Source of the DNA: Hypanus sabinus
Lineage: Eukaryota
Direction of reading: 5' to 3'
Length of the DNA: 64,000 nucleotides
NCBI RefSeq assembly: GCF_030144855.1
Contig: NC_082716.1
Span: 43,834,001 to 43,898,000 of the forward strand
Within the stretch, counting starts at the first letter, position 1; the number at the start of each line of letters is the position of its first letter. Both the position numbers and the translations under genes were made by a program. The notes under the pieces are model-generated. The model worked only from the letters and a program-made list of their open reading frames with translations, ran no database searches and had not been told where the DNA came from. This document shows, piece after piece, positions 1 through 64,000 of this stretch.

Positions 1-2810
1 CCTGGGTGCAGCCCAGTTGCCAGCCCCTCACCTCGACGCCATCACGCTGTCCGACAACGACTTCACCAGGGTCCTGGCGGATTTCCCATCAATTCTGGCA
101 CCGCAGTTCACGGCAGCCATGCTCTGACACAGCATACAGCACCACATCCCGACCCAGGGACCACCCCTCCACGCCCGTGAACGAGGCTACAACACCGGAC
201 CACTACCCTATGCCGCACATTCAGGATTTTGCAGCAAACCTGCACGGCACACGGATCTTCTCCAAGGTGGACCTCGTCCGGGGATACCATCAAATCCAGA
301 TGCATCCGGACGTCCCCAAAACGGCACTCATCACCCCGTTCTGCCTTTTCGAATTCCTCCGCATGCCGTTCAGCCTGAAGAATGCCGCACAGACGTTCCA
401 GCGGTTGATGGACGTGGTAGGACGCGACCTGGACTTCGCTTTCATCCATTTGAACGACATGTCCATAGCCAGCAGCAGTCGTCAGGAACATCTGTCCCAC
501 CTCCGTCAACTCTACGCCCGATTGAGTGAATACGGTCTAACAATCAACCTGGCCAAATGGCAGTTCGGGCTCGACACCATCGACTTCCTGGGCCACAGGA
601 TTACTAAAGACGGGGCAACCCCTCTGCCCGCTAAGGTAGACACAGTCCGCCATTTCCCCCGACCCACCACAATCACAGGCCTTCAGGAATTCGTGGGTTT
701 GGTAAATTTCTACCACCGCTTCCTCCCTTCAGCTGCCCAAACCATGCCATGCCCATGCCCTGTTTGCCCTGATATCAGGTCCGGGCAAGGACGTTACCTG
801 GGATGAGGAGTCCGCCGCCGCTTTCATTAAAACGAAAGAAGCCTTGGCAAATGCTGCAATGCTAGTGCACCCCAGAATGGACGTCCCTACCGCCCTCACA
901 GTGGACGCATCTAACACGGCAGTTGGTGGGGTACTGGAGCAACTCATCGCGGGTCGCTGGCAACCCCTGGCATTTTTCAGCAAACACCTGCGACCGCCCG
1001 AGCTCAAATTCAGTGCTTTCGACCGGGAACTGTTAGCGCTATACCTGGCAATCCGGCATTTCAGGTACTTCTTAGAAGGTAGGCCCTTCACCGCGTTCAC
1101 GGACCTCAAGCCGCTTACCTTTACGTTCACGAAGGTATCTGACCCCTGGTCGTCCCGCCAGCAGCGCCATCTGTCCTACATCTCTGAATAAACAACGGAT
1201 GTCCAGCACGTCTCGGGTGAGGACAATGTCGTGGCGGATGCGCTCTCTCGCCCTAACATTCATGCCCTTTCCCAAGGGGTAAACTTTGAAGCGCTGGCAG
1301 AGGCACAGCAGGCAAACGAGGAGATCCCTAGTTACAGAACCACAGTCTCTGGTTTGCAGCTCCAGAACCTCCCCGTTGGCCCAGGTGAGAGGACCCTACT
1401 CTGTGACATCACCACCGGCCAACCCCGTCCCGTTGTCCCAGCAAACTGGTGGCGCTGTGTTTTCGATTCCATTCATAACTTAGCGCACCCCTCCATCAGG
1501 ACAACCATCCGGATGGTCTCCAGCAGGCTCGCTTGGCATGGTCTCCACAAGCAGGTCAGTGAATGGGCCAAAACGTGCATGCACTGCCAGATGGCTAAGG
1601 TGCAGCGGCACACCAAAGCTCTGCCACAGCAGTTCCACCCCACCCACCGGCGTTTCGACCACATTCATGTGGATATTGTGGGCCCCCTGCCAGTGTCACA
1701 CAGAGCACGGCACCTCCTCACTATTGTGGACCGGTTCATCAGATGGCCAGAGGCGATCCCACTCACCAACACCACCTCCGAATCTTGCGCCCGGGCACTG
1801 ATCGCCACCTGGGTGTCCCGCTTTGGTGTACCGGCCCACATTACCTCCGACAGAGGCTCCCAGATCACCTCCAGTCTGTGGTCAGCTATGGCCAGCCTTT
1901 TGGGGACACAGCTGCACCACACAACTGCCTACCACCCACAATCGAACGGGCTGTTGGAGCATTTCCTCCATCACCTGAAGTCAGCTCTCATGGCCCGCCT
2001 GAGAGGAACTAACTGGGTGGATGAGCTTCCCTGGGTCCTATTCAGCATCCACACGGCACCCAAAGACGACCTGCACACCTTGTCGGCGGAGTTGGTGTAC
2101 AGCGCACCCCTGGTCATCCCCGGGGAATTCATACCAGCCCAAGGGGGCACGACAAAGAACCCGCAGCAGTCCTGGGCAGACTACACAAGAGGCTCGACAA
2201 GCTGGCCCCCATACCCACTTTGCAGCGTGGGCAGAACCTGACCTGCGTACCCAAAGACCTGCAGAAATGTAAGTTTGTGTTTGTACGAAGGGGCGGGCAT
2301 CGGCCACCGCTGCAACGGCCCTACGAGGGGCCGTTTACAGTGCTCAGAAACAATGGGTCCATGATAGTGCTGGACGTTGGGGGGAGAGGGGAGGTTTTCA
2401 CGGTGGACCGACTCAAACCAGCCCATGTGGACATGGCACAACCGGTCGCGTTTCCGGCACCGCGGCTCAGGGGCTGACCTCCCAAACAGGGTCCAGCCCA
2501 GACTGTGGACATTGGGGGGGTGTATCGCCGGTTCTGGGGGGGGGGGGGGTTATTGGCGACCCACTTCCTAGCGCACTCGAACCGGCTCACAAATAGCCAG
2601 CATGCCGGCATAAAAGCCAGTCCCAAAAGGGCACCAGGTCCACTTCACTAACAAAGGGAAAAGCTCGCATGGGACTGTGAGTACGTGCCTCCTACAGCAT
2701 CCGTGCCCGGGGAGGGCGGGATCAGGGAGGCTTTAAAGCAAAGCTGCGAAGTTTGAATAAAATCTTCTTTAATTGCAGTTTACCAACTCCATGTCATTAT
2801 TTCAGCTACA
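1..2810 (+). mobile_element. Ty3/Gypsy (CsRn1-like) LTR retrotransposon, copy 1; runs off the left edge of the window; degenerate RT-RNaseH-integrase plus 3' LTR
   Basis: ORF fragments show RT (FSKVDLVRGYHQI, MPFSLKNAAQTFQR), RNase H (VDASNTAVGGVLEQ) and integrase (HHCC zinc finger, HIHVDIVGP, SDRG, YHPQSNG). A G-run PPT at about 2536-2549 precedes an LTR at about 2553-2810 ending GCTACA. Closely similar to copy 2 but with stops, frameshifts and deletions. Confidence 0.95.
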
Positions 2811-4637: not shown

Positions 4638-5081
4638 TTAAGGAAAATAGATTTCAAAAGAGATCATAATGGCATCATAGAACATTTCTACCAGAGGGTG
4701 TCTTGAAAAACTCCAGAAAAAGTCAAAGGAAGAAATTGGATAAACCTTTATCACAAGTGAAGTTCCAAGGAGACCACCGGACATACATGAGGAAACTTTT
4801 AGCACATGACTGGACTCCCCAGTAACCTGTTTATTTTTGATCACCATTTATCACTATTCCTAAAATGTTTTTCACTCTCTTGGACCAGATCAACTTCAAA
4901 CCTTGCTGCTGTAGACATCCCACAAAGTGGTCCTTGACCATGTTTCATTGCCCAGATTTCTTGGATATTTTTCTAAAAAGCCTGTTCAGTTACTTATAGA
5001 TGTCTCTGATAAGCAGATATTAAAAAAAACATTAAACAGATTAATTAAAACAAAAAAATGACAACCGATATAAAATTATAC

Positions 5082-5294
5082 TGTGGCGACCCATTTCCTG
5101 GCACATCCGAACCGGCTCACAATTAGATAGCCTACGGGGGTTTGCGAGCAGAGTTTTGGAGCCTCTGCGCCACGGGGGGCAGGTTGAGGGAGGCTTAAAA
5201 GTGAGGCTGAGGATTTCGAATAAAGTTTTTTCCTTCGACTGCAGTTACCGACTCCGTGTCATATTTTTAGCGCTGCGCATAGCATACCGCTACA
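5082..5294 (+). repeat. 5' LTR of Gypsy copy 2
   Basis: Direct repeat of 9062-9277 with roughly a dozen substitutions and two small indels; contains AATAAA. Confidence 0.97.
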
Positions 5295-5296
5295 AT

Positions 5297-5309
5297 TGGT
5301 GACCCCGAC
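5297..5309 (+). promoter_or_regulatory. Primer-binding site complementary to the tRNA-Trp 3' end
   Basis: TGGTGACCCCGAC lies 2 nt after the LTR and matches the first 13 nt of the known Trp PBS TGGTGACCCCGACGTGAT. Confidence 0.9.
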
Positions 5310-5334
5310 AGTCCAAACGATTTTTGGACCAGAA

Positions 5335-6016
5335 ATGACCGACGCTGCCTCTGTTCATGCGGTTTCGTTGAAACTGCCGGGTTTCTGGACACAGCGACCG
5401 AACCTATGGTTCCAGCAAGCTGAAGCCCAATTCCACGTTCGCCAGATCACCTCAGAAGACACCCGCTACTACTACGTGGTGAGCTCCCTCGACCAGGACA
5501 CAGCGGCCCAGGTCGCGGAGTTCGTATAGTTGCCCCCGGCAGACGGCAAGTACACGGAATTCAAAGCCCTGCTCCTCAGGACTTTCGGACTCTCGCGGCA
5601 CGAGCGGGCTGCCCATTTACTGCACCTGGATGGCTTGGGCAACAGACCTCCATCGGCTTTAATGAATGAGATGTTGTCTCTAGCTGACGGACACACACCC
5701 TGCCTCATGTTTGAGCAGGCATTCCTGGAGCAGCTGCCCGAGGACATACGCCTGCTGCTGTCCGACGCGGATTTCAGTGACGCCCGGAAGGTAGCAGCCC
5801 GGGCGGACTTGCTGTGGAACGCCAAAAAGGTGAGCGGGGCGTCCATCGCACAGATCTCCCAGCCACCAGCAAACCAGTCCAGGCCCGGCCGCAGAGCCCG
5901 CCAACCCCCGGCCCAAGGAACACTGGTGCTTCTACCACCAGCGGTGGGGCGCAGAAGCCCGCCGTTGTCACCCCCCCTGCAAGTTCCCGGGAAACGCCAG
6001 GGCCAGCCGCCGCTGA
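5335..6016 (+). pseudogene. gag: Gypsy gag (disrupted) with CHCC nucleocapsid motif
   Basis: MTDAASVHAVSLKLPGFW...WFQQAEAQF N-terminus; premature TAG at 5527; frameshift before CFYHQRWGAEARRCHPPC (5927-5980); natural stop TGA at 6014-6016. Confidence 0.88.
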
Positions 6017-6046
6017 TGGCTACGGCGGCTGGCCATTGGGATAGCC
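5989..6046 (+). promoter_or_regulatory. -1 programmed ribosomal frameshift signal (G GGA AAC slippery site plus stem-loop/pseudoknot)
   Basis: Heptamer 5989-5995 in the gag frame, 5-nt spacer, perfect 12-bp stem 6001-6012/6023-6034; the -1 frame reads directly into the protease (FLVDTGAEISV). Confidence 0.85.
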
Positions 6047-9030
6047 TCCTGTATGTGTGGGATAGAAGGTTGGGACGCCGGTTTTTGGTTGATACTGGTG
6101 CCGAAATCAGCGTTTGACCTCCGACGAGTTACGACACCCGCAGCAGGGCACCGGGTCCCCCCGAGGGCCGTGAACGGCAGCACAGTAAGGACCTATGGCA
6201 CCCGTCAGGTGCAGCTACAGTTCGGCTCCAGCCAGTTCACGTGGGACTTTACACTGGCCGCCGTAGCCCAACCGCTTCTGGGTGCGGATTTTTTGCGGGC
6301 TCACAGCCTACTGGTCGACCTGCCCAGGAAGAGACTGGTACACGCCGAGACCTTTCAGACGTTCTCCCTGGGTGCAGCCCAGTTGCCAGCCCCTCATCTC
6401 GGCTCCATCACGCTGTCCGACGACGACTTCACCAGGGTCCTGGCGGATTTCCCATCGGTTCTGGCACCGCAGTTCACAGTGGCCATGCCCCGACACGGCG
6501 TACAGCACCACATCCCGACCCAGGGACCACTCCTCCACGCCCGCGCTCAGCGGCTTCCCCCGGACAAGCTCCGACTGGCGAAGGAGGAGTTCCAGAGGAT
6601 GGAGGAGTTGGGGATCATCCGACAGCCAATGGGCCTCCCCCCTGCACATGGTGCCCAAAGCGACGGGAGGCTGGAGACTGTGCGGCGACTACCGCAGGCT
6701 GAACGAGGCTACCACACCGGACCGCTACCCTGTGCCGCACATTCAGGACTTTGCAGCAAACCTGCACGGTGCATGGATCTTCTCCAAGGTAGACCTCGTC
6801 CGAGGGTACCATCAGATCCTGATGCATCCTGACGACGTCCCCAAAACGGCTCTCATCACACCGTTTGGACTTTTCGAGTTCCTCCGCATGCCGTTCAGCC
6901 TGAAGAATGCCGCACAGACGTTCCAGCGGTTAATGGACGCGGTGGGACGGGTCCTGGACTTCGCGTTCATCTATTTGGACGACATCCTCATAGCCAGCAG
7001 CAGTCGTCAGGAGCATCTGTCCCACCTCCGTCAACTCTGCGCCCGACTGAGTGAGTACGGTCTTACAATCAACCCCGCCAAATGCCAGTTCGGACTCGAT
7101 ACCATTGACTTCCTGGGCCACAGGATTACTAAAGACGTGGCAACCCCTCTGCCCGCTAAGGTAGATGCGGTCCGCCACTTCCCCCGACCCACCACGATCA
7201 AAGGCCTTCAGGAATTCGTAGGTATGGTCAATTTCTACCACCGCTTCCTCCCTTCAGCTGCCCGGATCATGCGCCCCTGTTCGCCCTGATGTCGGGTCCG
7301 AGCAAGGACATTAACTGGGACGAGGAGTCCGCCGCCGCTTTCGTTCAAACGAAGGAAGCTTTGGCGAACGCCGCAATGCTAGTACATCCCAGAATGGACG
7401 CCCCTACCGCCCTCACAGTGGACGCATCTAACACGGCAGTCGGTGGGGTGCTGGAGCAACTCATCGCAGGTCGCTGGCAACCCCTGGCATTTTTCAGCAA
7501 ACACCTGCAGCCACCCGAGCTCAAGTACAGTGCTTTCGACTGGGAACTGTTGACGCTCTACCTGGCAATCCGGCATTTCAGGTACTTCCTAGAAGGTCGG
7601 TCCTTCACTGTGTTCACGGACCACAAACCGCTTACCTTTGCGTTTATGAAAGCGTCCGACCCCTGGTCGTCCCGCCAGCAACGCCACCTCCCGCCAGCAA
7701 CGCCACCTGTCCTACATCTCTGAATACACGACGGATGTCCGGCACGTCTCGTGTAAGGACAATGTCGTGGCGGATGCGCTCTCTCGCCCTACCGTTCATG
7801 CCCTTTCCCAAGGGGTAGACTTTGAGGCACTGGCAGAGGCGCAGCAGGCGAATGAGGAGATTCCGAGTTACAGAACCGCAGTCTCCGGTTTGCAGCTCCA
7901 GGACCTCCCCGTAGGCCCGGGTGAGAGGACCCTACTCTGTGACGTCGCCACTGGCCAGCCCCGTCCCGTCGTCCCGACAGCCTGGCGGCGCCGTGTTTTC
8001 CACTCCATTCATAACTTGGCGCATCCCTCCATCCGGATAACTGTCCGGATGGTTTCCAGCAGGTTCGTTTGGCACGGACTCCGCAAACAGGTCAGTGAAT
8101 GGGCCAAAACGTGCATGCACTGCCAGATGGCCAAGGTGCAGTGGCACACCAAAGCCCCACTGCAGCAGTTCCATCCCGCCCACCAGCGTTTCGACCACAT
8201 TCATGTGGATATCGTGGGTGCGCGGCACCTCCTGACTATCGTGGACCGGTTCACAAGATGGTCAGAGGCGGTCCCGCTCACCGACACCACCTCCGAATCT
8301 TGCGCCTGAGCCCTGATCACCACCTGGATATCTCGCTTTGGTGTACCGGCCCACATTACCTCCGACAGAGGCGCCCAGTTCACCTCCAGCCTGTGGTCAG
8401 CTATGGCCAGCCTTTTGGGGACTCAGCTGCACCACACAACTGCCTACCACCCACAGTCGAACGGGCTAGTGGAGCGTTTCCACCGTCACCTGAAGTCGGC
8501 CCTCATGGCCCGCCTGCGAGGAGCCAACTGGGCGGACGAGCTTCCCTGGGTCCTACTCGGCATCCGCACAGCACCCAAGGACGACCTGCACGCCTCGTCG
8601 GCCGAGTTGGTATACGGCACGCCCCTGGTCGTCCCTGGGGAGTTCCTACCAACCCCACGGGGGCAAGACGAAGATCCCGCAGCAGTCCTGGGCAGACTAC
8701 GCGAGAAGCTCGGTAACCTGGCCCCCATACCCACTTCACAGCATGGGCAGAACCCGACCTGCGTACCCAAAGACCTGCAGAACTGTAAGTTTGTGTTTGT
8801 ACGAAGGGGCGGGCATCGGCCACCGCTGCAGCGGCCATACGAGGGGCCGTTTATGGTGCTCTGGAACAACGGGTCCACGTTCGTGCTGGCGTTGGGGGGA
8901 AAGAGGAGGTTTTCACGGTGGACCGCCTCAAACCGGCCCATGTGGACCTGGCACAACCGGCCGAGTTTCCGGCACCTCGGCGCAGAGGCCGACCTCCCAA
9001 GCAGGTTCTGGCCCAGACTGTGGACATTGG
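5989..9030 (+). pseudogene. pol: Gypsy pol (PR-RT-RNaseH-IN), disrupted
   Basis: DTGA protease; WRLCGDYRRLN and YLDDILIAS in RT; VDAS RNase H; HHCC and DDE-type integrase motifs; GPF motif. Broken by frameshifts including a 19-bp tandem duplication at about 7670-7708. Confidence 0.93.
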
Positions 9031-9061
9031 GGGGTGTATCGCCGGTTCTGGGGGGGGGTTA

Positions 9062-9277
9062 TGTGGCGACCCATTGTCTGGCGCATCCGAACCGGCTCAC
9101 AATTAGATAGCCTACGGGGGTTTGCGAGCACAGAGCTTTGGAGCCTCTGCGCCATGAGGGGGCAGGTTGAGGGAGGCTTAAAAGTGAGGCTGAGGATTTC
9201 GAATAAAGTTTTTTCCTTCAAATGCAGTTACCAACTCCGTGTCGTAATTTTAGCGCTGCGTGTAGCACACCGCTACA
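9062..9277 (+). repeat. 3' LTR of Gypsy copy 2
   Basis: Follows the PPT; ends CCGCTACA followed by TSD ATAC. Confidence 0.97.
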
Positions 9278-11307
9278 ATACTATGAAATAAAACAAACAT
9301 TTTCCATCCAGGTTGTTAACCCTATTTGTTTGAAAGCACATTAAGCTAAGGGGTCAGCAATGAAATCTGTCTGTCCTGTAACTTCACTATGACTAAGAAA
9401 TCAATACAATACACAGATAGTGAAGTCAAGAAAGCATTGACCCATAATGAAAACGTTGTTTGGTGGTTTTCTTCTGAGCCATCAGTAAAAAACAACTCCA
9501 TTTCAGCCCATGAGGATTGAGTTAACAATTGAGATGAACTGGAATGCTTAAATTTATCTCCGTTGTTAAAACTTTCTCAGCAATGTGCTTCTCCAACTAC
9601 AATACTTTTGCTAACTTATCCCAACCCTTGAATCAAATCTAGCTTACTTTATCAACACTAATGATTTTTTTTGCATATCAAATATTGGAAAGTCTTATAC
9701 ATTATGCCTATGGTCTGCCATGAGACAAATATATCTTAGTAAACCCAATTTTCTATTCTTTTAATACAGAAATAGAGACTAGCTCCAATTATTTCTTTGT
9801 AATTTACAACTGCACAATATTTGTATTCTTTAATTATTTCATTCTTTAAACCAGTTACTCACATTGTCTGCATTTGTCATTATGTAAGCTTGTTACATTT
9901 TGAATTTTCAAAGGCATACCAACTTAAAAAATTACAACAGCTCACCAAGGAATGATGAGTGAACATCAGTATCTACAATTCAGAGGAGCACTTAAATTCA
10001 GAACAGGGTGACAATAAGCAGTTAAGAAATAAGTTTGCATTAAATTAAAAAAATTAACTACTGAATATACAGTACCGTGCAAAAGTCTTGGCACATAAAA
10101 AAAAATTCTGTAAAGCAAAGATGGTTTCAAAAATAAAAAGAAAAATTTCTAAGTATCAAAAAAAACTGAAAAGAGCTGTAAAACAAAAACACTAAACCAA
10201 ATCAAAATCTAATGTGACTAAAACTGCATCAATTCTCTTAAAGATGCTGTCATACAGTTTTGTAAGAAAATTGGCTGGTAGGTTTAGACTTCTGCTAGCT
10301 TGCTTGCTTCTGTCTCTCCAGGTAGACCCAGACAGCTCTGATTATGTTGGTATCAGGGCTCTGTTGAGGCTATACCATCTGTTGCAGAACTCCTTGTTCT
10401 TCTTTCCCCTGAACATAGTGCTTTAAGACCTTGGCCATATGTTTGGGGTCATTGTCCTGCTACAGAATGAAGTTGGGAACACCTCCCTAATGATGGATGA
10501 TGGATGAAAATCTGTTTGTACCACTCAGCATTGAGAATTCCATTAATTCTGACCAGATTACCAACTCCATTTGCAGAAATACAGTTCCAAATCTGCAGGG
10601 AACCTCCATCTCGCTTCACCATTGGCTACAGACTCTCATTTATACCAGTCCTCTCCAGCTCTTCTGCGAACAAACTGCCTCCTTGTTTGAGCCACATATT
10701 TCAAATTTTAACTTGTCAGTCCAGAGTACTTGCTGCCATCGTTCAACACCCCAATCCTTGTGATTTGTGTGTAGGTGACTCTCTTGACTTTGTTTCCACT
10801 TCAGAGGACTTGTTTTTTGCTAACAACTCTTCCAAGAAGACCACTTCAGACAAGACCTTGCCATACTGCAGACGGGTTTACTTGGGTTCCAGTGGTTTTT
10901 GTGATAGCAGTGCTGTACTTCTTACGAATTAGAAGGGATATCAGTTTGATGTAACTCGTCTGCTGCACTCAGTTTCCATGGCCCACCAATGCATTTCTGA
11001 TCCTCGACCTTCTCAAGTTTCTTTGTGCTTTGTCAGAAGAGCTTGGATAACACAACTTGAAACTCCTGCTTTTTGTAAAGTTTCTGCTCAAGAAAGACCA
11101 TGCTGATGCAGGATGATCAGTATAAGAATCGATGACTTGAAGGTTGAACTAGCACATCTGCCACACCCTCGCCTTTTAGTTTGGTTGTCCCTTACCCAGA
11201 CTGATTCCTTCGGTTTCAGTTAATAAGTTTAGTTCATTCAACTCATTATGTCATTGATCATTAGCACCTGTTTGTTATCTTTATTAAACCTTGCTCAGGG
11301 CTATATA

Positions 11308-13187
11308 CAGTGCCTATAAAAAGTACTCATCCCTCTTGGAAGTTTCCATATTTTATTGGTTTACAACATTGAATCACTGTGGATTTAATTTGGCTTTTTT
11401 TGACACCAATCAACAGGAAAGATTTTTGTGTCAAAGTGAAAACAGATCTCTAAAAGGTGATCTAAATTAATTACAAATACAAAGCACGAAATAATTGATT
11501 ACACAAGTATTTACCGTCTTCAACTCAGTATTTAGCAGATGCACCCTTGGCAGCAATCACAACCTTGAGTCTGTGTGGATAGGTCTCTCAGCTTTGCACA
11601 TCTGGACACTGCAATTTTGCCTCATTCTTCTTTACAAAACTGCTCAAGCTCTGTCAGATTGCATGGGGCTTGTGAGTGACAGCCCTTTTCAAGTCCAAAT
11701 GATCTGAGGTCCAGACATTGACTTTGCTATGCCAGGGCATTAACTTTGCTGTTTTTAAGCCATTCACGTGTTGCTATGGCTTTCTGCTTGGGAATCATTA
11801 ACTTGCTGGAAAACAAATCTTATACCAAGTGGCAATAACACACACAAAATACTGGTGGAACACAGCAGGCCAGGTCACCTTTCCAGCTCTTAGCTTCATC
11901 CCACACCCTCTGGTCTTCTCCTATCATTTTGCATTCCCCCTCCCCCCACTACTTTCAAATCTCTTACTATCTTTCCTTTCAGATAGTCCTGACAAAGGGT
12001 CTCGGCCCGAAATGTCAACAGCGCTCCTCCCTATAGATGCTGCCTGGCCTGCTGTGTTCCACCAGCATTTTGTGTGTGTTGTTGTTTGAATTTCCAGCAT
12101 CTGCAGATTTCCTCATGTTTGCTCTTATACCAAGTGGCAGTTCTTTTGCAGTCGTTATCAGGTTTTACTCCCAGGATTTCCCTGTATTTTGCTGCAGTCA
12201 TTTTACCCTCTACCTTCAGAAGCATCCAGCATGATGCAGACACCACCAAGCTTCATAGTAGAGATGGTGTGTTTTTGATGATGTGCAGTGTTTGGTTTAC
12301 ATCAGGTTTATTCTGATGGTCAAAAAGCTCAAGTTGGGTTTCATCAGATCACAGAACCTTCTTCCAGCTGACTTCAGAGTCTCCCATATGTCTTCTGGCA
12401 AACTCTAGCCGAGATTTCATGTGAGCTCCCCCCCCCCTCCCACCAACAACAGCTTTCTCTTTGCTACTCTCCCATAAAGCTGTGACTGATGAAGCATCCC
12501 GGCAACAGTTGTTGAATGTGCAGTCTCTCCCATCTCAGCCACTGAAGCTTCTAACTTCTCCAGAGTTGTCATAGGAATCTTGGTGGCCTTCCTCACTAGT
12601 CCCCTTCTTGCATGGTTACTCAGTTTTTGAGGACGGCCTACAGATGTACAGCTGTACCATATTCTTTCCATTTCTTGATGATTAACAACTGTACTCCAAG
12701 GGATATTCAGTGACTTGGAAATTTTCTCGTGTACATTTCCTGGCTTGTGCTTTTCAATAACCTTTTTGGAGTTGTTTGGAGCTTTCTTTCGTCTTCATGG
12801 TGTAGTTTTTGCCAGGATACTGGCTCATCAGCAGTTAGACCTTTCAGGTACAGGCTTTTTTTAAACTGTAATCAATTGAAACACCTCCACTGCAGGCAGG
12901 TGATCTCCATTTAACTAATTATGCGACTTCTAAAACCAGTTGGCTGCAATAGTGATGATTTGGTGTCATATGAAGCGGGTGGGGGGGTGTGAATACTTAT
13001 GGAATCAATTATTTTGTGTTTTCTATTTCTAATTAATTTAGATTACTTTGTAGGTATGTTCTTGCTTTCACACGAAAGTCTTTTCTCTGTTGATCAGTGT
13101 CAAAAAAAAGCCAAATTAAATCTACTGTGATTCAATGCTATAAGACATGAAAACTTCCAAGAGGGTGAACACTTTTCATAAGCACTG
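11308..13187 (-). mobile_element. Tc1 transposon with long (about 200 bp) TIRs, nested in the outer Tc1
   Basis: TA|CAGTGCCTATAAAAAGT ... ACTTTTCATAAGCACTG|TA; transposase remnants GRPQKLSNHARRGLVRKATKIPMTTL...LYGRVAKRK and KVEGKMTAAKYREIL. Confidence 0.92.
11835..12122 (+). mobile_element. Short Penelope-like derivative (inverted 5' piece plus 3' end with decayed hammerhead motif)
   Basis: 17-bp TSD TCTTATACCAAGTGGCA (11818-11834 / 12123-12139); AGTCCTGACAAAGGGTCTCGGCCCGAAATGTC at about 11985-12016. Confidence 0.8.
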
Positions 13188-25849: not shown

Positions 25850-26805
25850 GAAAGAAAGAGGGCAGAAAGCCAGAATGAAAGGATATAGGAAGGAGGAGGG
25901 GCACAAGCAGGCTGGTGATAATGGAATATAGGAGAGGAGGTAAGGTAGGTCAGAGGTGAAGGAGGAGGGAGAAATGAGAATGATGTGAGAACCTGCAAAG
26001 TAAAATGTGTAGCAAGCAAAAGGTTGAAAAAAGTGGGATCTGATAGGAGAGGAATAAAGGAAAGGAAGTGGAGAACCAAAGTGGTCAGCAGGTGTGTGAG
26101 AGGAAAGAGAAGGGGTAATGGCGCCAGGGCAATAAGGGAAAACAATGAGTGAGGGTGTGGACTGAGGGGAGTGCATATCAGAAGTTATAAAAATCAATTT
26201 TAATGCCAACAGGTTTGGGAATTTGAGGTGTTGTTCCTCTAATCTGCGTCTAGCCACGACTTAGCAAAAGAAGTAGCTGTGGACGGACGTTGGTATGGGA
26301 ATGGAAAGTGGACTTGAAATGGTTGGCCATCACGAGATTATGGCTATTATGATAAATGGTGCAGAGATGGTAGATGAAGCGATTTCTGCCAATCCGTGCC
26401 AGACTTCCCTGAAGTACAAGAAGTTGCACTGGGAGCACTGAATGGCATTGCTGGATTCACATGTGAAGTGCTGCCTCACCTGGTAGAACTAATTTTGGCC
26501 CTTAGTGGAGGTGAGCGAGGAGCTGTAAAGGTATATGTAATAGTTGGGATAATTGCAGGGTTAAGAAGTACCTGGAAGGGTACCTGTGGACAAGGATGAG
26601 CAAGCACAGTTGTCACAGAGAGAACAATTCCTGTGGGGGGGGGGGGAGAATACAAATTTGTGCCTGGTGGTGGAATCCTGTTGGAGACAGCAGATGTTAC
26701 AGAGAGTGATTGATGCAGAGGCTAATGGGGTGATAGGTGAGATCAAGAGGAACACTATTCTTGTTACATGGTAGGGGGATGGTGTGAGGACAGATATGTG
26801 GGAAA

Positions 26806-28925
26806 CTTCTCTTCGGTATTCACCACTGAGAGGGAACTTGATGACGGTGAGGACAATATGAGTGAGGTTGATGTTCTGGAGCATGTTGATATTAAGGGAG
26901 AGGAGGTGTTGGAGTTGTTAAAATACATTAGGACAGATAGGTCCCAGGGGCCTAATGGAATATTCCCCAGGCTGCTCCACGAGGCAAGGGAAGAGATTGC
27001 TGAACCTTTGGCTAGGATCTTTATGTCCTCGTTGTCCACGGGAATGGTACCAGAGGATTGGAGGGAGGCGAATGTTGTCCCCTTGTTCAAAAGAGGTAGT
27101 AGGGATAGTCCAGGTAATTATAGACCAGTGAGCCTCACGTCTGTGGTGGGAAAGCTGTTTTAAGAGATTCTTAGAGATAGGATCTATGGGCATTTGGAGA
27201 ATCATGGTCTGATCAGGGACAGTCAGCATGGCTTTGTGAAGGGCAGATCAAGCCTAACAAGCCTGATAGAGTTCTTTGAGGAGGTGACCAGGCATATAGA
27301 TGGGGGTAGTGCAGTGGATGTGATCTACATGGATTTTAGTAAGGCATTTGTCAAGGTTCTACACGGTAGGCTTATTCAGAAAGTCAGAAGACATGGGATC
27401 CAGGGAAGTTTGGCCAGGTGGATTCAGAATTGGCTTGCCTGCAGAAGGCAGAGGGTTGTGGTGGAGGGAGTACATTCAGAATGGAGGGTTGTGACTAGCG
27501 GTGTCCCACAAGGATCTGTTTGGGATTAACTTAATAACTTCAAACAAAAAGATAACAATAACTTCTTTTAGAATCATAGAGTCACAGAAAATAACAGCAC
27601 AGCACAGCACAGAGACAGACCCTTCGAGCCATCTAGTCCATGCCTGATCCCATTGACCTGCACTGGGACCATAGCCACTTCTCTTAAATGTTGAAATCAA
27701 ACTTGCATGCACCACTTGCACTAGCAGCTTGTTCCACACTCTCACGAACCTCTGAGTGAAGAAATTTCCCTTATGTTCCCCTTAAACTTTTCACATTTCT
27801 CCCTTAACCCATGACTTCTGGTTGTAGTCTACCCAATCTCAGTGGAAAAAGCCTGTTTACATTTATCTTATCTATATCCCTCATAACTTTGCATACCTCT
27901 ATTAAATCTTCTCTTAATCTATATTCTAAAGAATACAGTCCTAACCTATTCAATCTTTCCTTATAACTCAGGTCCTCTGGACCCTGCAACATCCTTGTAA
28001 ATTTCTCTGTACTCTTTCAACCTTATTTACATGGGTTGGCAAGTTTGCAGACGACACAAAGCTTGGTGGTGTTGTAGATAGTGTAGAGGATTGTCGAAGA
28101 TTGCAGAGAGACATTGATAGGATGCAGAAGTGGGCTGAGAAATGGCAGATGGAGTTCAACCCAGAGAAGTGTGAGGTGGTACACTTTGGAAGGACAAACT
28201 CCAAGGCAGAGTACAAAGTAAATGGCAGGATACTTGGTAGAGTGGAGGAACAGAGAGATCTGGGGGTACATGTCCACAGATCCCTGAAAGTTGCCTCACA
28301 GGTAGATAGGATAGTTAAGAAAGCTTATGGGGTGTTAGCTTTCATAAATCGAGGGATAGAGTTTAAGAGACACGATGTAATGATGCAGCTCTATAAAATT
28401 CTAGTTAGGCCACACTTGGATTACTGTGTCCAGTTCTGGTTGCCTCAGTATAGGAAGGATGTGGAAGCACTGGAAAGGGTACTGAGGAGATTTACCAGGA
28501 TGCTGCCTGGTTTAGAGAGTATGGATTATGATCAGAGATTAAGGGAGCTAGGGCTTTACTCTTTGGAGAGAAGGAGGATGAGAGGAGACATGATAGAGGT
28601 GTACAAGATATTAACAGGAACAGGCAGCCAGCGCCTCTTCCCCAGGGCACCACTGCTCAGTACAAGAAGTAATGGCTTTAAGGTAAGGGGAGGGAAGTTC
28701 AAGGGGGATATTAGAGGAAGGTTTTTCCCTCAGTGAGTGGTTGGTGTGTGGAATGCACTGCCTGAGTCAGTGGTGGAGGCAGATACGCTAGTGAAATTTA
28801 AGAGACTACTAGACAGGTATATGGAGGAATTTAAGGTGGGGGATTATATGGGAGGCAGGGTTTGAGGGTCAGCACAACATTGTGGGCCGAAGGGCCTGTA
28901 ATGTGCTATACTATTCTATGTTCTA
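26806..28925 (+). mobile_element. CR1 LINE (RT region to 3' end), interrupted by an inverted CR1 fragment
   Basis: NYRPVSLTSVVGK, QHGFVKGRS, YMDFSKAF, SGVPQGSV, KFADDTK, LVRPHLDYCVQFW; ctatgttctat tail. Confidence 0.93.
27526..28030 (-). mobile_element. CR1 3' fragment inserted antisense in a CR1
   Basis: LSYKERLNRLGLYSLEYRLREDLIEV on the minus strand. Confidence 0.85.
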
Positions 28926-29525: not shown

Positions 29526-32140
29526 TAAGACCATAAGATATAGAAGCAGAATTAGGCCATTTAACAGAGATGATAGATTGTCTGTCTCAGCCCCAATTTC
29601 ACACCACCTCCCCATATCCCTTCACATCTTGACTAATAAAAAATCCACTGACCTCTGCCTCAAGTATACTGAATGGCTTGGCCTCCACAGCTGCCTGTGG
29701 CAACAAATTCCACATATTCACCATTATCTGGCTGAAGAAATTCCTCTTTATCTCCAATCTAAAACAACGTCCCTTTATGCTGAGGCTCTGCCTTCTGGTC
29801 CTAGACTCCCCCACCATAGGAAACATCCTCTCCACATTCACTCTATTAAGGTTTCCATTCATTCTTCTGAATTCCAGTGAATAGAGGCCCAAAGCCAATA
29901 AACACCCCTCATATGACAAACCTGTCGATCCTGGAATCATTTGTGAGAACTTCTTTTGAACCCTCTCCCATATCAGTATGTCCTTTCTTAGATAGGGGGC
30001 CCAAAACTGTTCACAATTCTCCATAAGGCCTCGCCAGTGCTTTCTAAAGCATCAAAATTACATCCTTGGTTTTATATTCTAGTCCTCTTGAAATGAATGC
30101 TAACATCACATTTACCTTCCACACCACAGACTCAACCTGCAAAGTAACCTTTAGGGAATCCTGCATGAATCTCCCAAATCCCCTTGCACCTCAGATTTTT
30201 GAATTTTCTCTCCATTTAGAAAAGAGACTATGCTTTATTTATTTTACCAAAGTGCATGACTATACACTCCCTTACACTATATTCTATCTGCCACTTCTTT
30301 GCCTATTCTCCTAAACTGTCTAAGTCCTTCTGCAGATTCTCTGCTTCTTCAACACTACCTGCCTCCACCTAGCTTCATATTGTCCATAAATTTGGCCACA
30401 AAGTTTTCGATTCTGTCATTCAAATCATTGACATATAATGTAAAAAGAAGTGGTCCCAATACTGAGCCCTGAGGAATGTCACTGGTCGCCAGCAGCCTAC
30501 CAAAATAGGCCCCTTTTATTCCCACACTTTGCCTCCTGCTAATCAGTCATGAGTGGCACCCTGTCAAAGACCTTCTGCAAATCCAAATCTACTGACTCTC
30601 CTTTATCTATTCTGACTGTTATTTCCTCAAAGAATTCCAACAGATTTGTCAGGTGAGATTTCCACTTAAGGAAAACATGCTGACTTTGGCCTGTCTTCTC
30701 TTGTGCTTCCAAGTACCTCAATGTCATCCTTTATAGTGGACACCAGCATTTTCCCAACCACTGAAGGCAGGCTAACTGGCCTATCTTCTGTCTCCCTCCC
30801 TTAAAGTGAGGAGTGAAATTTGCAATTTTCAATTTCTCTGGAACCTTTCCTGAATCTAGTGATTCTTGGAAGTATCATTATTAATACCTCCACAATCTCT
30901 TTAACTACCTTTTTCAGAATTCTAGGGTGTATTCCAATTGGCCCAGGTGACTTATCTACCTTCAGATCGTTCTGTTTCCCAAGCACCTACTCTTTAGTAA
31001 TGGCAACTACTCTCACTTCTGCCCTATGACACTCTTGAATTTCTGGCATATTTCTAGTGTCTTCCACAGTGAAGACTGATGCAAAATACTTAATAAGTTC
31101 ATCCACCGTTTCTTTATTTCCTGTTACTACCTCTCCAGTGTCATGTTCCAGTGGTTTGATATCCACTCCTCTCCTTTTCATATATCTGAAAAAAAATTGA
31201 GTATCCTCTTTTATGTTATTGACCTGCTTACCTTCATATTTCATCTTTTCTCTCCAAAAGCTTTGAGTTCTCTATGTTCCCATTAATTTTTGCTATATTA
31301 TATGCCCTCTCCTTTGCTTTTATGCTGTCTTTGGCTTGTTAGCTATGGTTTCCCCATTCTCCCACTGGAATACATATTCATCTTTGGGATGTATTTATCC
31401 TGTACCTTCTGAATTGCCCCCATAAACTCCAGCTAATGCTATTCTGCCGTCATCCCTGCTAGTGGCTGCTTCCAATCAACTTTGGCCAACTTCTCTCTCA
31501 TGCCTCTGTAATTCCCTTTACTCCGCTGTAATACTGATCAAAATTCTTTGGACACATCATGCAGAGAAAGACATTAGAACATTTAGTTACAACTGGAAAA
31601 CTGGAAGGAAAAAGAAGCAGAGGTAGACAGAGAATGAGAATGATAGATGGATGAACATCATGGTTAGAAACGGGAGGTAATAACAACAATTCGGAGGGTC
31701 AGGGACTGTGATGGATGGAGAATCATGATTGCCCACGCTGAACGGCAAGGCACCTGAACTAATACATCTGACTTTAGCTTCTCTCTCTCAAACTGCAGGG
31801 TAAATTCTATCACATTATGATCGCTGTCTCCTAAGGGTTCCTTTACTTTAAGCTCACTAAACAAATCTGGTTTATTACACAACACCATTGTAATTTATAT
31901 CTCAAACCCTGGCTGCTGTTTGGAGGCCTGCATTTTACTCCCATCAGGATCTTTTAACCTTTAACTCTACCCACAAGGATTCTACATTTTCTGATCCATG
32001 TCGCCTCTTCCTTAAGGATTTGATTTCATTTTTACCAACAGAAGCAGCCTACCTGCCTGTCCTTTGATACTAAATTTCCAATTATGCACTTCTTTCAGCC
32101 ACGCCCACAACGTCAAACTTGCCAGTTTCTAACTAGGCCT
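29526..32140 (-). mobile_element. CR1 LINE, degenerate, containing an RTE 3' fragment at about 31540-31757
   Basis: Minus-strand ORFs QFWAPYLRKD, TNLLEFFEEIT, KSPGPIGIHPRILK, LGDSDHNVIEF. Confidence 0.88.
31540..31757 (+). mobile_element. RTE-clade LINE 3' fragment
   Basis: Translates to KFFGHIMQRKTLEHLVTTGKLEGKRSRGRQR, a typical RTE C-terminus. Confidence 0.8.
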
Positions 32141-59629: not shown

Positions 59630-62470
59630 AAGTGGACAAAAGTACATTGCGATGGCCTGAAGAGAGGTAGGAGGACAGAACTCCAAGCCAGACTGAAGCA
59701 TAGGGGAATGAAACTTCCTTTACCCAGCATCTTGTTAGCAAATTTACAGTTGGTGTAGAACCTAAGAGCAAGTTTGCTGTATCAGAGGGAAATGAGAAAT
59801 TGCTGCTTTCTGTGTTTCATGGGGACATGGCTCACTCAGACACGTCAGATACATTGGTGAGATCTGAGGGCTTCTCAATAAACAGGATAGACTGGACTGC
59901 TGGTTCGGAGAAGGCAAAAGCTGGGAGACTGTTTTTCATGATAAATTGTTTGTGGTGTTTGGACACAGTGGTCTTGTCACATTCTTGTTCTCCCGACCTG
60001 GATCCCCAGATCTTATAAGTAGTGCTGACCACACAACTTACAAGAAAGTTCTCCATGATCCTGACTGCAGTTTACATGCTGACAAAGGCCGATGTTGATC
60101 AGGTATTCGAGATATTAAATGCTGCCATTAGCAAACAAGAAGCAGCCTTCGTGATGTCTTTCAAATCATTGTCGGGTCTTCAATCAGGCTTCTTTGAAGA
60201 AACCTCTGCACAGTTATCATCACCATTTAACCTGAAGCACTATGGTTTCCAACACATTCGACCACTGCTTACCATTCCATGTTGAGATGGCATTTTGGGA
60301 AACCTGCTGTCCTTCTCCTATCTGCATACAGCCAGTGACTAAACAGCAAAGCTCCAGCAATAAGGACAACAAAAAGCTGGTTATGGGAGGCAGAGGAATG
60401 GCTTCAAGTTGATGGATTGGGCCATGTTCAAGGACTCATCAGAGGATCTGAATTAGTGCACCACAGTTGTCATGGACTTTATGATTTGAAAGGCATCAGG
60501 GTAGGCCGTTTCTTGTAGACAAGTGTGTGTTCACAGAAATATTATATTTCCCCAGCCAAAGGCCTTGGATGACCCATGAGATCTGCAACCTGCAGAGGGC
60601 CAGATCTGGTGACCAAGTGGGATACAACAGGTCCAGGTACAATCTCCTGAAAGCCATCTCACATGCGAAGTGGCAATTCTGAATCACTGAAGAATGCTCA
60701 ACAGCTGTTGCAGGGCTTGAATGCAATTACCTCTTCCAAAACAAATCCAAGCAAACATAGGTGACAACAAAGCTTTGCTGCCAGATGAGCTAAATGCCTT
60801 CTATGCTCACTTTGACCATCAAAACATGGAGGAACCTTCACAAACTCCCACAGTCACTGTTCATCCTGTGATTTCAGTCTCTGAGGCCAATGTGAGAGCA
60901 TCCTTTAGGAGGGTGAACCCACAGAAAGGCTCCAGCCTAGCTAGGGTACCTGACCAAGTACTAAAGACCAGAACTGATCAACTGGCTGGAGTGTTTACCA
61001 ATTTCTTTAACCTCTTTGACAGTCAGAGGTACCCATTTGCTTCAAGCAAGCTTCAGTTATACCAGTGCCTAAGATGAACATGGTAACCTGCCTCAATGAC
61101 TATCGTCCAGTAACACTAACATTCACTGTGATGAAGTGCTTCATATCCACTCCAATTTGCCCATCATCACCACAGATCCACAGTAGATGCCATTTCATAG
61201 GCTCTTCACTCAACACAAGAACATTGGACAGTGAAGTTGCATACATCAGGATGTTCTTCATCGACTACAACTCAGCATTCAATTCTACCATCCCCTCAAA
61301 ACTAAACAATAAGCTTCAAGATCTAGACCTCGATAACTCTTTGTGCATTGGATCCTTGCTTTCCTTAGTTGCAGACCCCTGTCAGTTCGGATTGGCAAAA
61401 ACATCTTCTCCAAAATTTCCATCAGCACAAGTGCGTGACAAGGCTGTATGCTTAGCCCCATTCTCTACTTGCTCTACACTTATGATTGTGAAGGACAGAT
61501 GAAATGCTCAAATGCCATATTTAAGTTTGCTGATGACCCCACTGATGTTGGCTAAGTTAAAGGTGATGACGAATCAGCATATAGAAGGGAAACCGAAAAT
61601 CTGGTTGAGTGATGCCACAAAATCAACTTTTCACTCAATGTCAGCAAGACCAAGGAGCTGATTATTGACTTTGGGAGGAGGAAACTGGAGATCCATGAGC
61701 CAGTCCTCATTGGAGGACCAGACGTGAAGAGAATCAGCAACTTTAAATTCCTTGGTGTTATCATTTCAGAGGATCTGTCCTGGGTCCAGCATGTAAGTGC
61801 TATTAGAAGAAAGCACGACAGTGCCTTTACTTCCTCAGAAGTTTGCAAAGTTTTGGCATGATGTGTAAAACTTCAATCAACTTATATAGATATATAGTGG
61901 AGAGTATATTGACTGGTTGCATCAAGCCTGATCTCCATGGATACATCTCCACACCATACTTGAACATCTCCATGCTTGAACAGAAAATATTTCAAAAAAT
62001 AATGGATGTAGCCCAGTCCATCACAGGTAACACCCTTCTCACTGTGCTCTCTACTCATTACTGCCATCAGAAAGAAGGTCCAAGTGTCTCAGGAACCACA
62101 CCTCCAGGTTCAGGAACAGTTATTACCCCTCAACATCAGGCTCTTGAACCAGAGGGGATAATTTCACTCAACTTCACTCGCCTCATCACTGAACTGTTTC
62201 CACAACCTATGAACTCACTTTCAAGCACTCTTCATCTCATGCTCTCGATATTTTTTGTTTATTTAGTTGTAATTATTATTATTTCTTGCTTTATTCCTTT
62301 TTGTATTTGCACAGTTTGTTTTCATTTGCTTACTGGTTGTTTGCCTGTTCTGTTGGGTGCAGATGGTTTCTATTGTATTTTTTGGATTTACTCTATAAGT
62401 CCTCAAGAAAATGACTCCCAGGGTTGCATAAAGTGACATATATGTACTTCAATAATAAATTTACTTTGAA
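59630..62470 (+). mobile_element. Rex1/Babar LINE, long and degenerate (endonuclease to 3' end)
   Basis: LPSILLANL (endonuclease start), LPDELNAFYAHF, NDYRPVTLT, FIDYNSAFN, KFADD; actttgaacttt tail. Confidence 0.88.
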
Positions 62471-62479
62471 CTTTAGTAC

Positions 62480-63046
62480 AAGTAAAGCATTCAACATGGT
62501 CCCGCATAGTAGGCAGATCCAGAAGGTTAACACACATTGGATCCATGATGTCTTAATAGAATGGATGCAAAATTTGCTTAGTCGTAGAAGATGGAGGATA
62601 GTGGTAGAGGGGTATTATTCTGAAAGGAGATCTATGACCAGTGGTATTCTATAGGGATTAGAGCTGGGACTTCAGTTTGTGATGTATGTAAATGATCTGG
62701 ATGAAAGTGGAGGTGGTCTTATTAGTAACTTTGCAGATTATAGGAAGTATGGTGGAGTTGTGGAAAGTGAGGAAAGTTGTGAAAGGATAGAGCAGGGTAT
62801 GGAACAGTAGGAAGTATGGGCAGAAAAATAGTAGGTAAAGTTTAATCTGGACAAGTGTGAACTGTTTCACTTTGGAAGGTCAAACTAAGAGTGAATGACA
62901 GGACAATTGAGAACACTGATGGGGTGGAAGCTCATAGGTCCCTGAAAGTGGCAACATTAGCAGATAGGATGCTGATAAGGGTGTATTGTCTTAATCAGTT
63001 GGGACGTGGAGTAGAAGTGTAGGGAAGACATTTTGCAGCTGTATAA
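62480..63046 (+). mobile_element. CR1 RT fragment
   Basis: SKAFNMVPHSR...IEWMQNLL. Confidence 0.75.
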
Positions 63047-64000
63047 ACTGCGAACCCCTGCAGAATCTGGTGACCCTGTAATCTCTGTATCAGTGGTCGT
63101 TGTCAGAACATCTTTCATGAGGGTGAGCCCTTTCAAGATGTCAAGCCTTGATGGTGTACCTGATAGGGCTCTGAAAACCTGTGCCAATCAAATGGTGGGT
63201 GTGTTGAAGGACATCTTCAATCTCTCACTGGTGCAGACAGAAGTTCCCACCTGCTTCAAAAGGAAGGCAATCATACCAGTGCCCAAGAAGAGAAGGCTGA
63301 GCTATCTCAATGACTGTCACCCAGTTGTATTCACATCTACTGTGATGAAGTGCTTTGTGAAGTTAGTAATGGCCAGAATCAACTCCCACCTAAAAAAGGA
63401 CCTGGACCTGGTGCAATTTGCCTATCACCACAATAAGTCTGCAGCAGATGTAATCTCATTGGTTCTCCACTTGGCTTTGGATCACCTGGACAAAAGTCAG
63501 GCTGCTGTTTATTGATTACAGCTCAGCATTCAACACCGTTATACCCTGAGTACTAATAAACAAGCTGCAAAACCTGAGCCTCTGCACTTCCCTCTGCAAC
63601 TGGATCCTTGACTTCCTCACCAGGAGACCACAATCAGTGCAGATCAGAAATAACATCTACTCCTCACGGACAATCTACACTGATGCACCTCAAAGGATGT
63701 GTTTTGAGCCTACCACTTTATTCTCTATATAGCCACAACTGTGTGGCTAGGCAAAGCTCAAATGCCATTTATAAATTTGCAAATGACACAACTATTGTTG
63801 GTAGAATTTCAGGTGGTGAGGAGGAGGTGCACAGGAGTGAAATAGATCAGCTGGTTAAGTGGTGACGCAACAACAACTTTGCACTCAATGTCAGTAAGAC
63901 CAGAGAATTGATTGTGGACTTCAGGAAGGGGAAGTCAAGGGAACACACACCGGTCCTCATTGAGGGATCAGTAGTGAAAAGGGTGAGAAGTTTCAAGTTC
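63047..64000 (+). mobile_element. Rex1/Babar RT fragment running off the window
   Basis: DGVPDRALKTCANQ, IIPVPKK, QFAYHHN, KFANDTTIVG. Confidence 0.88.

What the first reader, a model, noticed from the sequence alone, without database searches (positions are those of the whole stretch)
5989..6046. Intact -1 frameshift cassette with a predicted H-type pseudoknot at the gag-pol junction
Seen: the gag frame reads TTC CCG GGA AAC GCC...TGA(6014), giving a canonical X XXY YYZ heptamer G GGA AAC. After a 5-nt spacer comes a perfect 12-bp GC stem GGCCAGCCGCCG/CGGCGGCTGGCC. Loop bases GGCTA (6018-6022) are complementary to TAGCC (6042-6046), predicting an H-type pseudoknot (S1 12 bp, L1 5 nt, S2 5 bp, last loop 7 nt). 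The -1 frame runs straight into the DTGA protease. Known: this is the layout of retroviral and coronaviral -1 PRF stimulators. The ORF track hides it because an upstream frameshift mutation artificially fuses the frames.
Basis: partly seen in the sequence, partly recalled or inferred. Interest (0 to 1): 0.7.

Follow-up and report, generated by a model that had tools for sequence, protein, structure and literature searches.

The report
Conserved frameshift pseudoknot of CsRn1 retrotransposons
This is the conserved signal between the coat-protein and enzyme genes of a common animal jumping gene; it likely makes some ribosomes slip back one base with the help of a predicted knotted RNA, a well-known trick, and it sits here in a dead copy.

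Summary
G GGA AAC (5989-5995) lies in the gag frame, followed by a 5-nt spacer, a perfect 12-bp stem with the gag stop in its loop, and a 5-bp loop-to-downstream match; the protease is in the -1 frame. The host is a decayed 4.2-kb CsRn1-type Ty3/gypsy LTR retrotransposon, probably in a ray genome, which holds 2054 exact copies of a 37-base piece of the cassette. Gag and pol are in the -1 arrangement in 99 of 107 scorable loci. Across 49 divergent elements stem 1 covaries strongly. Stem 2 covaries significantly but more loosely: 69% paired against 61% shuffled in the window's register, one clade uses a register shifted by two bases, and 13 of 49 have only a 3-bp helix. Three single-ORF relatives lack both heptamer and stem. 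An AUG overlapping the stop is not conserved (10 of 53). Best reading: a genuine -1 frameshift signal with a likely H-type pseudoknot, working like PEG10's. Frameshifting was not measured, and this copy cannot make Pol. It is a known kind of signal; I found no description of it for this clade.

The parts
5078..5081 (+). Target-site duplication, left copy (4 bp)
   Evidence: Same 4 bases at 9278-9281
5082..5294 (+). 5' LTR (TG...CA)
   Evidence: Direct repeat of 9062-9277; 201 of 214 aligned bases identical
5297..5309 (+). Primer-binding site for tRNA-Trp
   Evidence: Its last 10 bases match the 3' end of loci that ARAGORN calls tRNA-Trp(CCA), 2 of 5 loci tested
5335..6016 (+). gag, broken by a stop at 5527-5529 and a frame break near 5860-5870
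   Evidence: Pfam DUF7041, E 3.6e-16; comparison with 29 sister copies
5927..5980 (+). CX2HX9CX3C zinc knuckle, marks the true gag frame at the junction
   Evidence: Translation; CsRn1 hallmark per PMC2582038
5989..5995 (+). Slippery heptamer G GGA AAC
   Evidence: same heptamer in 43 of 53 representative relatives
5996..6000 (+). Spacer, 5 nt
   Evidence: 5-7 nt in 49 of 49 analysed elements
6001..6012 (+). Stem 1, 5' arm
   Evidence: 81.6% of cells paired; 10 of 12 pairs show two-sided changes
6013..6017 (+). Loop 1, holding the gag stop TGA (6014-6016), which overlaps an ATG (6016-6018) in the pol frame
   Evidence: ATG present in 10 of 53 representatives
6018..6022 (+). Predicted stem 2, 5' arm
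6023..6034 (+). Stem 1, 3' arm
   Evidence: raised third-position identity of pol codons
6035..6041 (+). Last loop, 7 nt
   Evidence: 7 nt in 25 of 49 aligned elements, 10 nt in 9, 13 nt in 10
6042..6046 (+). Predicted stem 2, 3' arm
6091..6102 (+). Protease active-site motif DTGA in the -1 frame; stop follows at 6115-6117 in this copy
   Evidence: Translation
6651..7127 (+). Reverse transcriptase (part in one open frame)
   Evidence: Pfam RVT_1, E 3.9e-31
7316..7612 (+). RNase H
   Evidence: Pfam RT_RNaseH_2, E 8.2e-30
7971..8507 (+). Integrase zinc-binding and core pieces, interrupted by a stop
   Evidence: Pfam Integrase_H2C2 E 1.9e-14; rve and rve_3 below their curated cut-offs
9050..9059 (+). 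G-rich polypurine tract
   Evidence: Sequence
9062..9277 (+). 3' LTR, followed by the right target-site duplication 9278-9281

Best explanation
This 58-base cassette is the conserved gag-pol junction of a CsRn1-type Ty3/gypsy retrotransposon, and it likely works as a programmed -1 ribosomal frameshift signal stimulated by a predicted H-type pseudoknot. Shown: heptamer in the gag frame, pol in the -1 frame, spacer, both complementarities, and their conservation with compensatory change. Inferred: a ribosome reading gag pauses at the structure 5 nt past G GGA AAC; a minority slips back one base and makes Gag-Pol, while the rest unwind stem 1 and stop 8 codons later in loop 1, which sets a high Gag to Gag-Pol ratio. 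Stem 1 is the fixed part; stem 2 is shorter and varies in register among lineages. In this copy the cassette is a preserved relic, because gag and pol are both broken.
For: Frame: 30 of 30 close loci have the gag stop 8 codons after the site and 28 of 30 keep GGGAAAC; 99 of 107 scorable loci are -1; 40 of 67 knuckle-bearing Gag homologs end GN plus 6 residues. S1: 10 of 12 pairs with two-sided changes; whole structure above all 500 shuffles on 4 of 5 measures and above every slid register; in 14 disjoint pairs of relatives 18 of 25 two-sided changes keep pairing against 1-2 in slid registers. S2: own loop with own downstream stretch -9.99 against -8.26 kcal/mol for swapped partners, z -5.8, n 49; window register 68.6% against 60.7%, p 0.0004, n 28; 6 of 14 two-sided changes keep pairing against 1-2 in slid registers; a 10-member clade (SH-aLRT 99, quick tree) shifts both arms together, 5 pairs formed in 10 of 10, with the two four-fold third positions in S2 invariant against 0.33 background identity. 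Natural control: 3 distinct single-ORF relatives fold at -3.5 to -7.6 (z above 0) against a mean of -22.4 (z -3.0) and show no heptamer. G GGA AAC is among the most shift-prone heptamers (PMC5009743).
Against: No frameshift or structure was measured. S2 is only 57.6% paired over all 49 in the window's register; 13 of 49 reach only 3 bp, and the own partner is the best partner in only 4 of 49; the two variable S2 columns alone give p 0.10 over all 49 and 0.03 over 28; 22 one-sided differences break an S2 pair; a blind scan ranked the window's register second, behind a G-U-rich diagonal without covariation; only 12 of 49 beat 95% of synonymous recodings. Shuffles ignore relatedness. A 7-nt loop across a 12-bp stem is tight (my judgement), and the spacer is at the short end of the 6-9 nt called typical (PMC3835772). 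In this copy a base at 6037 found in only 2 of 29 sisters lets the last loop pair with the spacer (-32.7 against -28.4), which competes with S2.
Confidence: 0.72

Rival explanations
1. -1 frameshifting is real, but the stimulator is the stem-loop (S1) alone; S2 is optional or a by-product of the codons on both arms.
For: S2 is weak in about a quarter of elements (13 of 49 at 3 bp); 57.6% paired overall; its core lies on conserved Ala and Leu codons; a search listing shows stem-loops can replace a pseudoknot in SRV-1 (PMC3203594, start of abstract).
Against: Two-sided changes and a joint register shift in S2; synonymous positions fixed where they pair and at background next to them; rough energy sum favours the knot by about 2 kcal/mol with a recalled 9.6 penalty, none with 12.
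Confidence: 0.2
2. Pol is made by termination-reinitiation at the overlapping stop-start UGAUG (6014-6018), as at UAAUG in CHV1 and SART1, and the structure serves that.
For: The overlap is in this copy and in the other families seen in this genome; coupled reinitiation at UAAUG is reported for CHV1 (PMC2699510, start of abstract); SART1 is recalled.
Against: The ATG overlaps the stop in only 10 of 53 representatives, and only 17 of 53 have any pol-frame ATG before the protease motif, while 43 of 53 keep GGGAAAC 7-10 codons upstream or close to it; the structure is placed for a ribosome on the heptamer, not on the stop.
Confidence: 0.04
3. The structure acts in RNA packaging, dimerisation or reverse transcription, or pol is reached by splicing, and the heptamer is a coding coincidence (Gly-Asn).
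For: Not excluded directly; one contig in one possible RNA run skips 33 bases over the site, with ends that are not GT..AG.
Against: Heptamer and stem vanish together in single-ORF relatives; the first heptamer base and the codon choice are fixed (36 of 39 and 10 of 10 G at the pol-frame third position); no GT..AG joint among the 5 joints listed (contigs only, weak).
Confidence: 0.04

Closest known systems
PEG10 (Edr) -1 frameshift signal; PNMA3, PNMA5, Rtl3 (Ty3/gypsy-derived mammalian genes)
   Same: Same heptamer GGGAAAC with a structure 5-8 nt downstream (PMC11299033, passages); PEG10 has an H-type pseudoknot with the gag stop in loop 1 (PMC13622457, passages), as predicted here.
   Different: Those are domesticated single genes with measured frameshifting; this is a mobile CsRn1-type family. 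No sequence relationship of the structures was tested.
CsRn1 clade of Ty3/gypsy (CsRn1, PwRn1, Anopheles AgCR elements)
   Same: tRNA-Trp primer site, 4-bp duplication, CX2HX9CX3C Gag; 9 of 14 AgCR elements have ORFs overlapped by -1 frameshifting, others are fused (PMC2582038, passages). The clade is known in fish (PMC11117352, passages).
   Different: Those papers hold no occurrence of 'pseudoknot'; PMC2582038 none of 'slippery'. The signal's structure and covariation are what this analysis adds.
Retroviral and coronaviral -1 PRF pseudoknots; CPK-1 motif
   Same: X XXY YYZ, short spacer, H-type topology with no bases between the stems (PMC3835772, passages).
   Different: CPK-1 has S2 of 6-7 bp and L1 of 1-2 nt; here 5 bp and 5 nt, with a long 12-bp S1. 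No Rfam family matches (2 chance microRNA hits far below threshold).

Membership tests
-1 PRF signal (heptamer plus 3' stimulator) | X XXY YYZ heptamer in the upstream (gag) frame | tested here: met
   GGGAAAC in 43 of 53 representatives, 4 more GGGAAAT
-1 PRF signal (heptamer plus 3' stimulator) | Downstream ORF in the -1 frame, open from the heptamer | tested here: met
   99 of 107 scorable loci; in this copy open only to 6114
-1 PRF signal (heptamer plus 3' stimulator) | Stable conserved structure 5-9 nt downstream | tested here: met
   Spacer 5-7 nt; S1 covariation; z -3.0 mean, absent in 3 fused relatives
-1 PRF signal (heptamer plus 3' stimulator) | Measured -1 product dependent on heptamer and structure | not testable with these tools
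   Needs a reporter assay or ribosome profiling
H-type pseudoknot | Loop pairs with downstream bases, supported by covariation | tested here: met
   Significant but moderate; weak in 13 of 49 elements
H-type pseudoknot | Both stems form together in the folded RNA | not testable with these tools
   No pseudoknot folding program at hand; rough sum with a recalled penalty is mildly favourable
CPK-1 pseudoknot motif | S2 of 6-7 bp and L1 of 1-2 nt | tested here: not met
   S2 5 bp, L1 5 nt in this copy; definition from PMC3835772
CsRn1 clade | tRNA-Trp primer-binding site | tested here: met
CsRn1 clade | 4-bp target-site duplication | tested here: met
CsRn1 clade | CX2HX9CX3C Gag motif | tested here: met
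   definition
CsRn1 clade | Order protease, RT, RNase H, integrase; short LTRs; no env | tested here: met
   LTRs of 213 and 216 nt, integrase region runs up to the polypurine tract
CsRn1 clade | RT tree placement with CsRn1 reference elements | not tested
   No named reference sequences were fetched
Stop-restart (UAAUG/UGAUG) coupling | Overlapping stop-start conserved across the group | tested here: not met
   10 of 53 representatives

The most novel reading that the evidence does not exclude
The G GGA AAC plus long-stem pseudoknot is an undescribed, clade-wide recoding element of CsRn1-type retrotransposons, kept across elements whose protease regions are about 50% identical. It comes with a natural series of variants: a clade with stem 2 shifted onto the gag stop, three loop lengths, and loss in single-ORF lineages. 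That series would let one read off which parts of a frameshift pseudoknot matter, and would warrant its own Rfam family.
Probability: 0.5. Interest if true: 0.42.

Novelty: new member of a known kind. Interest (0 to 1): 0.3.

Why it matters
It names the likely expression signal of a widespread animal retrotransposon clade and backs it with covariation, which the papers I could search do not give. It explains why gene callers split or miss gag in these elements, and offers dozens of natural variants of one compact frameshift signal for reporter work. It changes no principle: -1 frameshifting at GGGAAAC with a pseudoknot is textbook for Ty3/gypsy-derived genes, and this copy is inactive.

Tried and rejected
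Rfam: no real match. Viral contigs: 39 pattern matches, none a relative. Blind diagonal scan chose a G-U-rich register without covariation, so its detailed table does not test the predicted S2; repeated with the register named in the finding. One search had an indexing error that left the second class empty; corrected. Rows left out before the 49-element counts: of 139 loci, 16 without a knuckle, 16 without a protease motif, 6 fused and 2 in +1; 99 reduced to 53 at 80% identity; L017 (same family as the window), L060 (deletion through the cassette), L080 (unclear site) and L131 (pol-frame stop) dropped. Trees are quick trees; the window's own row is misplaced because its gag is frameshifted; one pair (L043-L064, identity 1.0) looks like an artefact of a short sequence. 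Expression: 23 runs listed, none labelled RNA holds half the words; 4 guessed-RNA runs laid as contigs cover the region with sister-like sequence but cannot show transcription, level or splicing. Gao et al. 2003 (RNA 9:1422), the survey most likely to mention such signals, is not held; I saw only the summary in PMC5009743. Earlier findings: none by sequence or by the full word set.

Full report
Observation. G GGA AAC lies at 5989-5995 in the frame that carries the Gag zinc knuckle; gag ends at TGA 6014-6016. After 5 nt comes a perfect 12-bp stem (6001-6012 with 6023-6034) whose 10-nt loop holds the stop; loop bases 6018-6022 are complementary to 6042-6046. The -1 frame runs from the heptamer to the protease motif DTGA at 6091. 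Of 317 canonical heptamers on the + strand of the window, 2 have such a stem behind them, and the other has a 3-nt loop. The hairpin folds at z -4.1. Rfam has no matching family.

The element. It is a 4.2-kb LTR retrotransposon (5082-9277) with LTRs 201 of 214 identical, a 4-bp target duplication, a primer site matching tRNA-Trp loci of the same genome (2 of 5 loci called by ARAGORN), a DUF7041 Gag with CX2HX9CX3C, and RT, RNase H and integrase domains. These are the hallmarks of the CsRn1 clade (PMC2582038, passages); an RT tree with named references was not made. The closest named proteins are from rays, up to 93% identical, and the genome is 4.04 Gb, so the host is probably a ray. The copy is dead: stops at 5527 and 6115 and several frame breaks.

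Family state. All 30 closest loci keep the gag stop 8 codons after the site; 28 keep GGGAAAC. Among the 29 sisters, S2 has 5 of 5 pairs in 29 and S1 has 12 of 12 in 22; they were picked by similarity, so this shows the family state, not selection. A 37-base piece of the cassette occurs 2054 times exactly. At protein level 40 of 67 knuckle-bearing homologs end in GN plus 6 residues, and several more in EN plus 6.

Divergent relatives. I fetched 80 of 415 metagenome loci, 8 from genome bins and 20 more from the own genome. Of 139 loci, 107 have both knuckle and protease motif: 99 in -1, 6 fused, 2 in +1. The 99 reduce to 53 representatives; 43 have GGGAAAC, 4 GGGAAAT, and 42 have the stop 8 codons on. 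Four were dropped for stated reasons, leaving 49.

Stem 1 is firmly supported: 81.6% of cells paired, 10 of 12 pairs with two-sided changes, slid registers 24-45% for the whole structure; in 14 disjoint pairs 18 of 25 two-sided changes keep pairing. The junction folds at mean z -3.0 (39 of 49 below -2) against -0.14 for a control stretch of pol; three distinct single-ORF relatives give z above 0 and show no heptamer.

Stem 2 is supported, less firmly. For: own partners beat swapped ones, -9.99 against -8.26 kcal/mol, z -5.8, and beat synonymous recoding in 38 of 49. In the window's register 28 gap-free elements give 68.6% against 60.7%, p 0.0004. Different lineages use different complementary arms. 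A 10-member clade (SH-aLRT 99, quick tree) moves both arms by two bases, with 5 pairs in 10 of 10; its two four-fold positions in S2 are invariant while neighbouring and background positions are at 0.3-0.4. Against: 57.6% paired over all 49; 13 of 49 have only 3 bp; the own partner is best in 4 of 49; the 10-nt loop window can overlap stem 1; 22 one-sided differences break a pair and 8 of 14 two-sided ones do not keep it; some slid registers reach p 0.03-0.04; a blind scan ranked the register second. Shuffles ignore relatedness, so p-values are optimistic. A rough energy sum gives the knot -31.7 against -29.5 for the hairpin with a recalled initiation penalty, and no gain with a higher one. 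In this copy a base at 6037, shared by 2 of 29 sisters, lets the last loop pair with the spacer and compete with S2.

Mechanism. Most likely (0.72) tandem -1 slippage on G GGA AAC, stimulated by an H-type pseudoknot, gives Gag-Pol from a minority of ribosomes. Frameshifting with a plain stem-loop takes 0.2, so frameshifting as such is about 0.92. The gag stop overlaps an ATG in the pol frame, which raised stop-restart as a rival; only 10 of 53 representatives have that overlap, so it gets 0.04. Other roles or splicing get 0.04; contigs of four guessed-RNA runs could not decide expression or splicing.

Known or new. The same heptamer with a downstream structure drives frameshifting in PEG10, PNMA3, PNMA5 and probably Rtl3 (PMC11299033, passages), and PEG10's pseudoknot also holds the gag stop in loop 1 (PMC13622457, passages). 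A review reports that 28 of 51 animal retroelements have pol in -1, many with classical heptamers (PMC5009743, passages). -1 overlapping ORFs are reported for CsRn1-type elements, and the clade is known in fish and molluscs (PMC11117352, PMC6238403, passages). The geometry does not fit CPK-1 (PMC3835772, passages). A search for 'CsRn1' with 'pseudoknot' found 0 papers; 'CsRn1' with 'frameshifting' found 2, of which I read passages of one and only the listing of PMC2238898; searches listed nothing on this structure. Gao et al. 2003 is not held, subscription papers and Repbase were not searched, and I opened no supplements, so prior description is not excluded. An earlier AI note on a similar signal in another element agrees but is no evidence.

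Verdict. A real feature, rightly read: a new member of a known kind of recoding signal, with fresh comparative support for the pseudoknot, in an inactive copy. Interest 0.3.

Noticed in passing
L140-L160 (second CsRn1-type family in G000): 9 exact pattern matches have one extra base in the slippery run, which puts gag and pol in one frame, against 20 without; three of the 9 are near-duplicates. The main family shows 0 such against 2054. A quick tree does not cluster them (7 changes, shuffled mean 7.0; mostly unresolved), so a fused source element and repeated slippage are both open.
   Followed up: partly
window 1-2700 and L031: A second copy of the family (88-92% identical inside) lies just upstream; its junction, left of the window, has the same cassette. 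Its 3' repeat at 2552-2623 is only 64% like the LTR of the main copy, although its 5' LTR end resembles it.
   Followed up: partly
window 21553 and 14832, minus strand: Two exon-like matches to a BTF3-type gene (name and motifs recalled); later exons were not found, so the retroelements may lie antisense in one of its introns.
   Followed up: no
L034, L035, L037, L044, L047, L048, L051, L053, L059, L071: One clade has stem 2 shifted by two bases to include the gag stop codon, and 9 of the 10 have a last loop two codons longer.
   Followed up: yes
L112-L119: Eight CsRn1-type loci sit in prokaryotic genome bins, most likely animal DNA binned by mistake; not tested.
   Followed up: no
window 11351-13153: Inverted repeats of about 130-180 nt around a transposase-like fragment (12417-12794): probably a decayed Tc1-type DNA transposon (label recalled).
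   Followed up: no
P0003: A ray protein named RNF185 isoform X1 contains this Gag at 77% identity: an exonised copy or an annotation artefact.
   Followed up: no
window 26741-28736, 29599-30051, 61020-63515: Fragments that read like LINE reverse transcriptases (judged by eye, not scanned).
   Followed up: no
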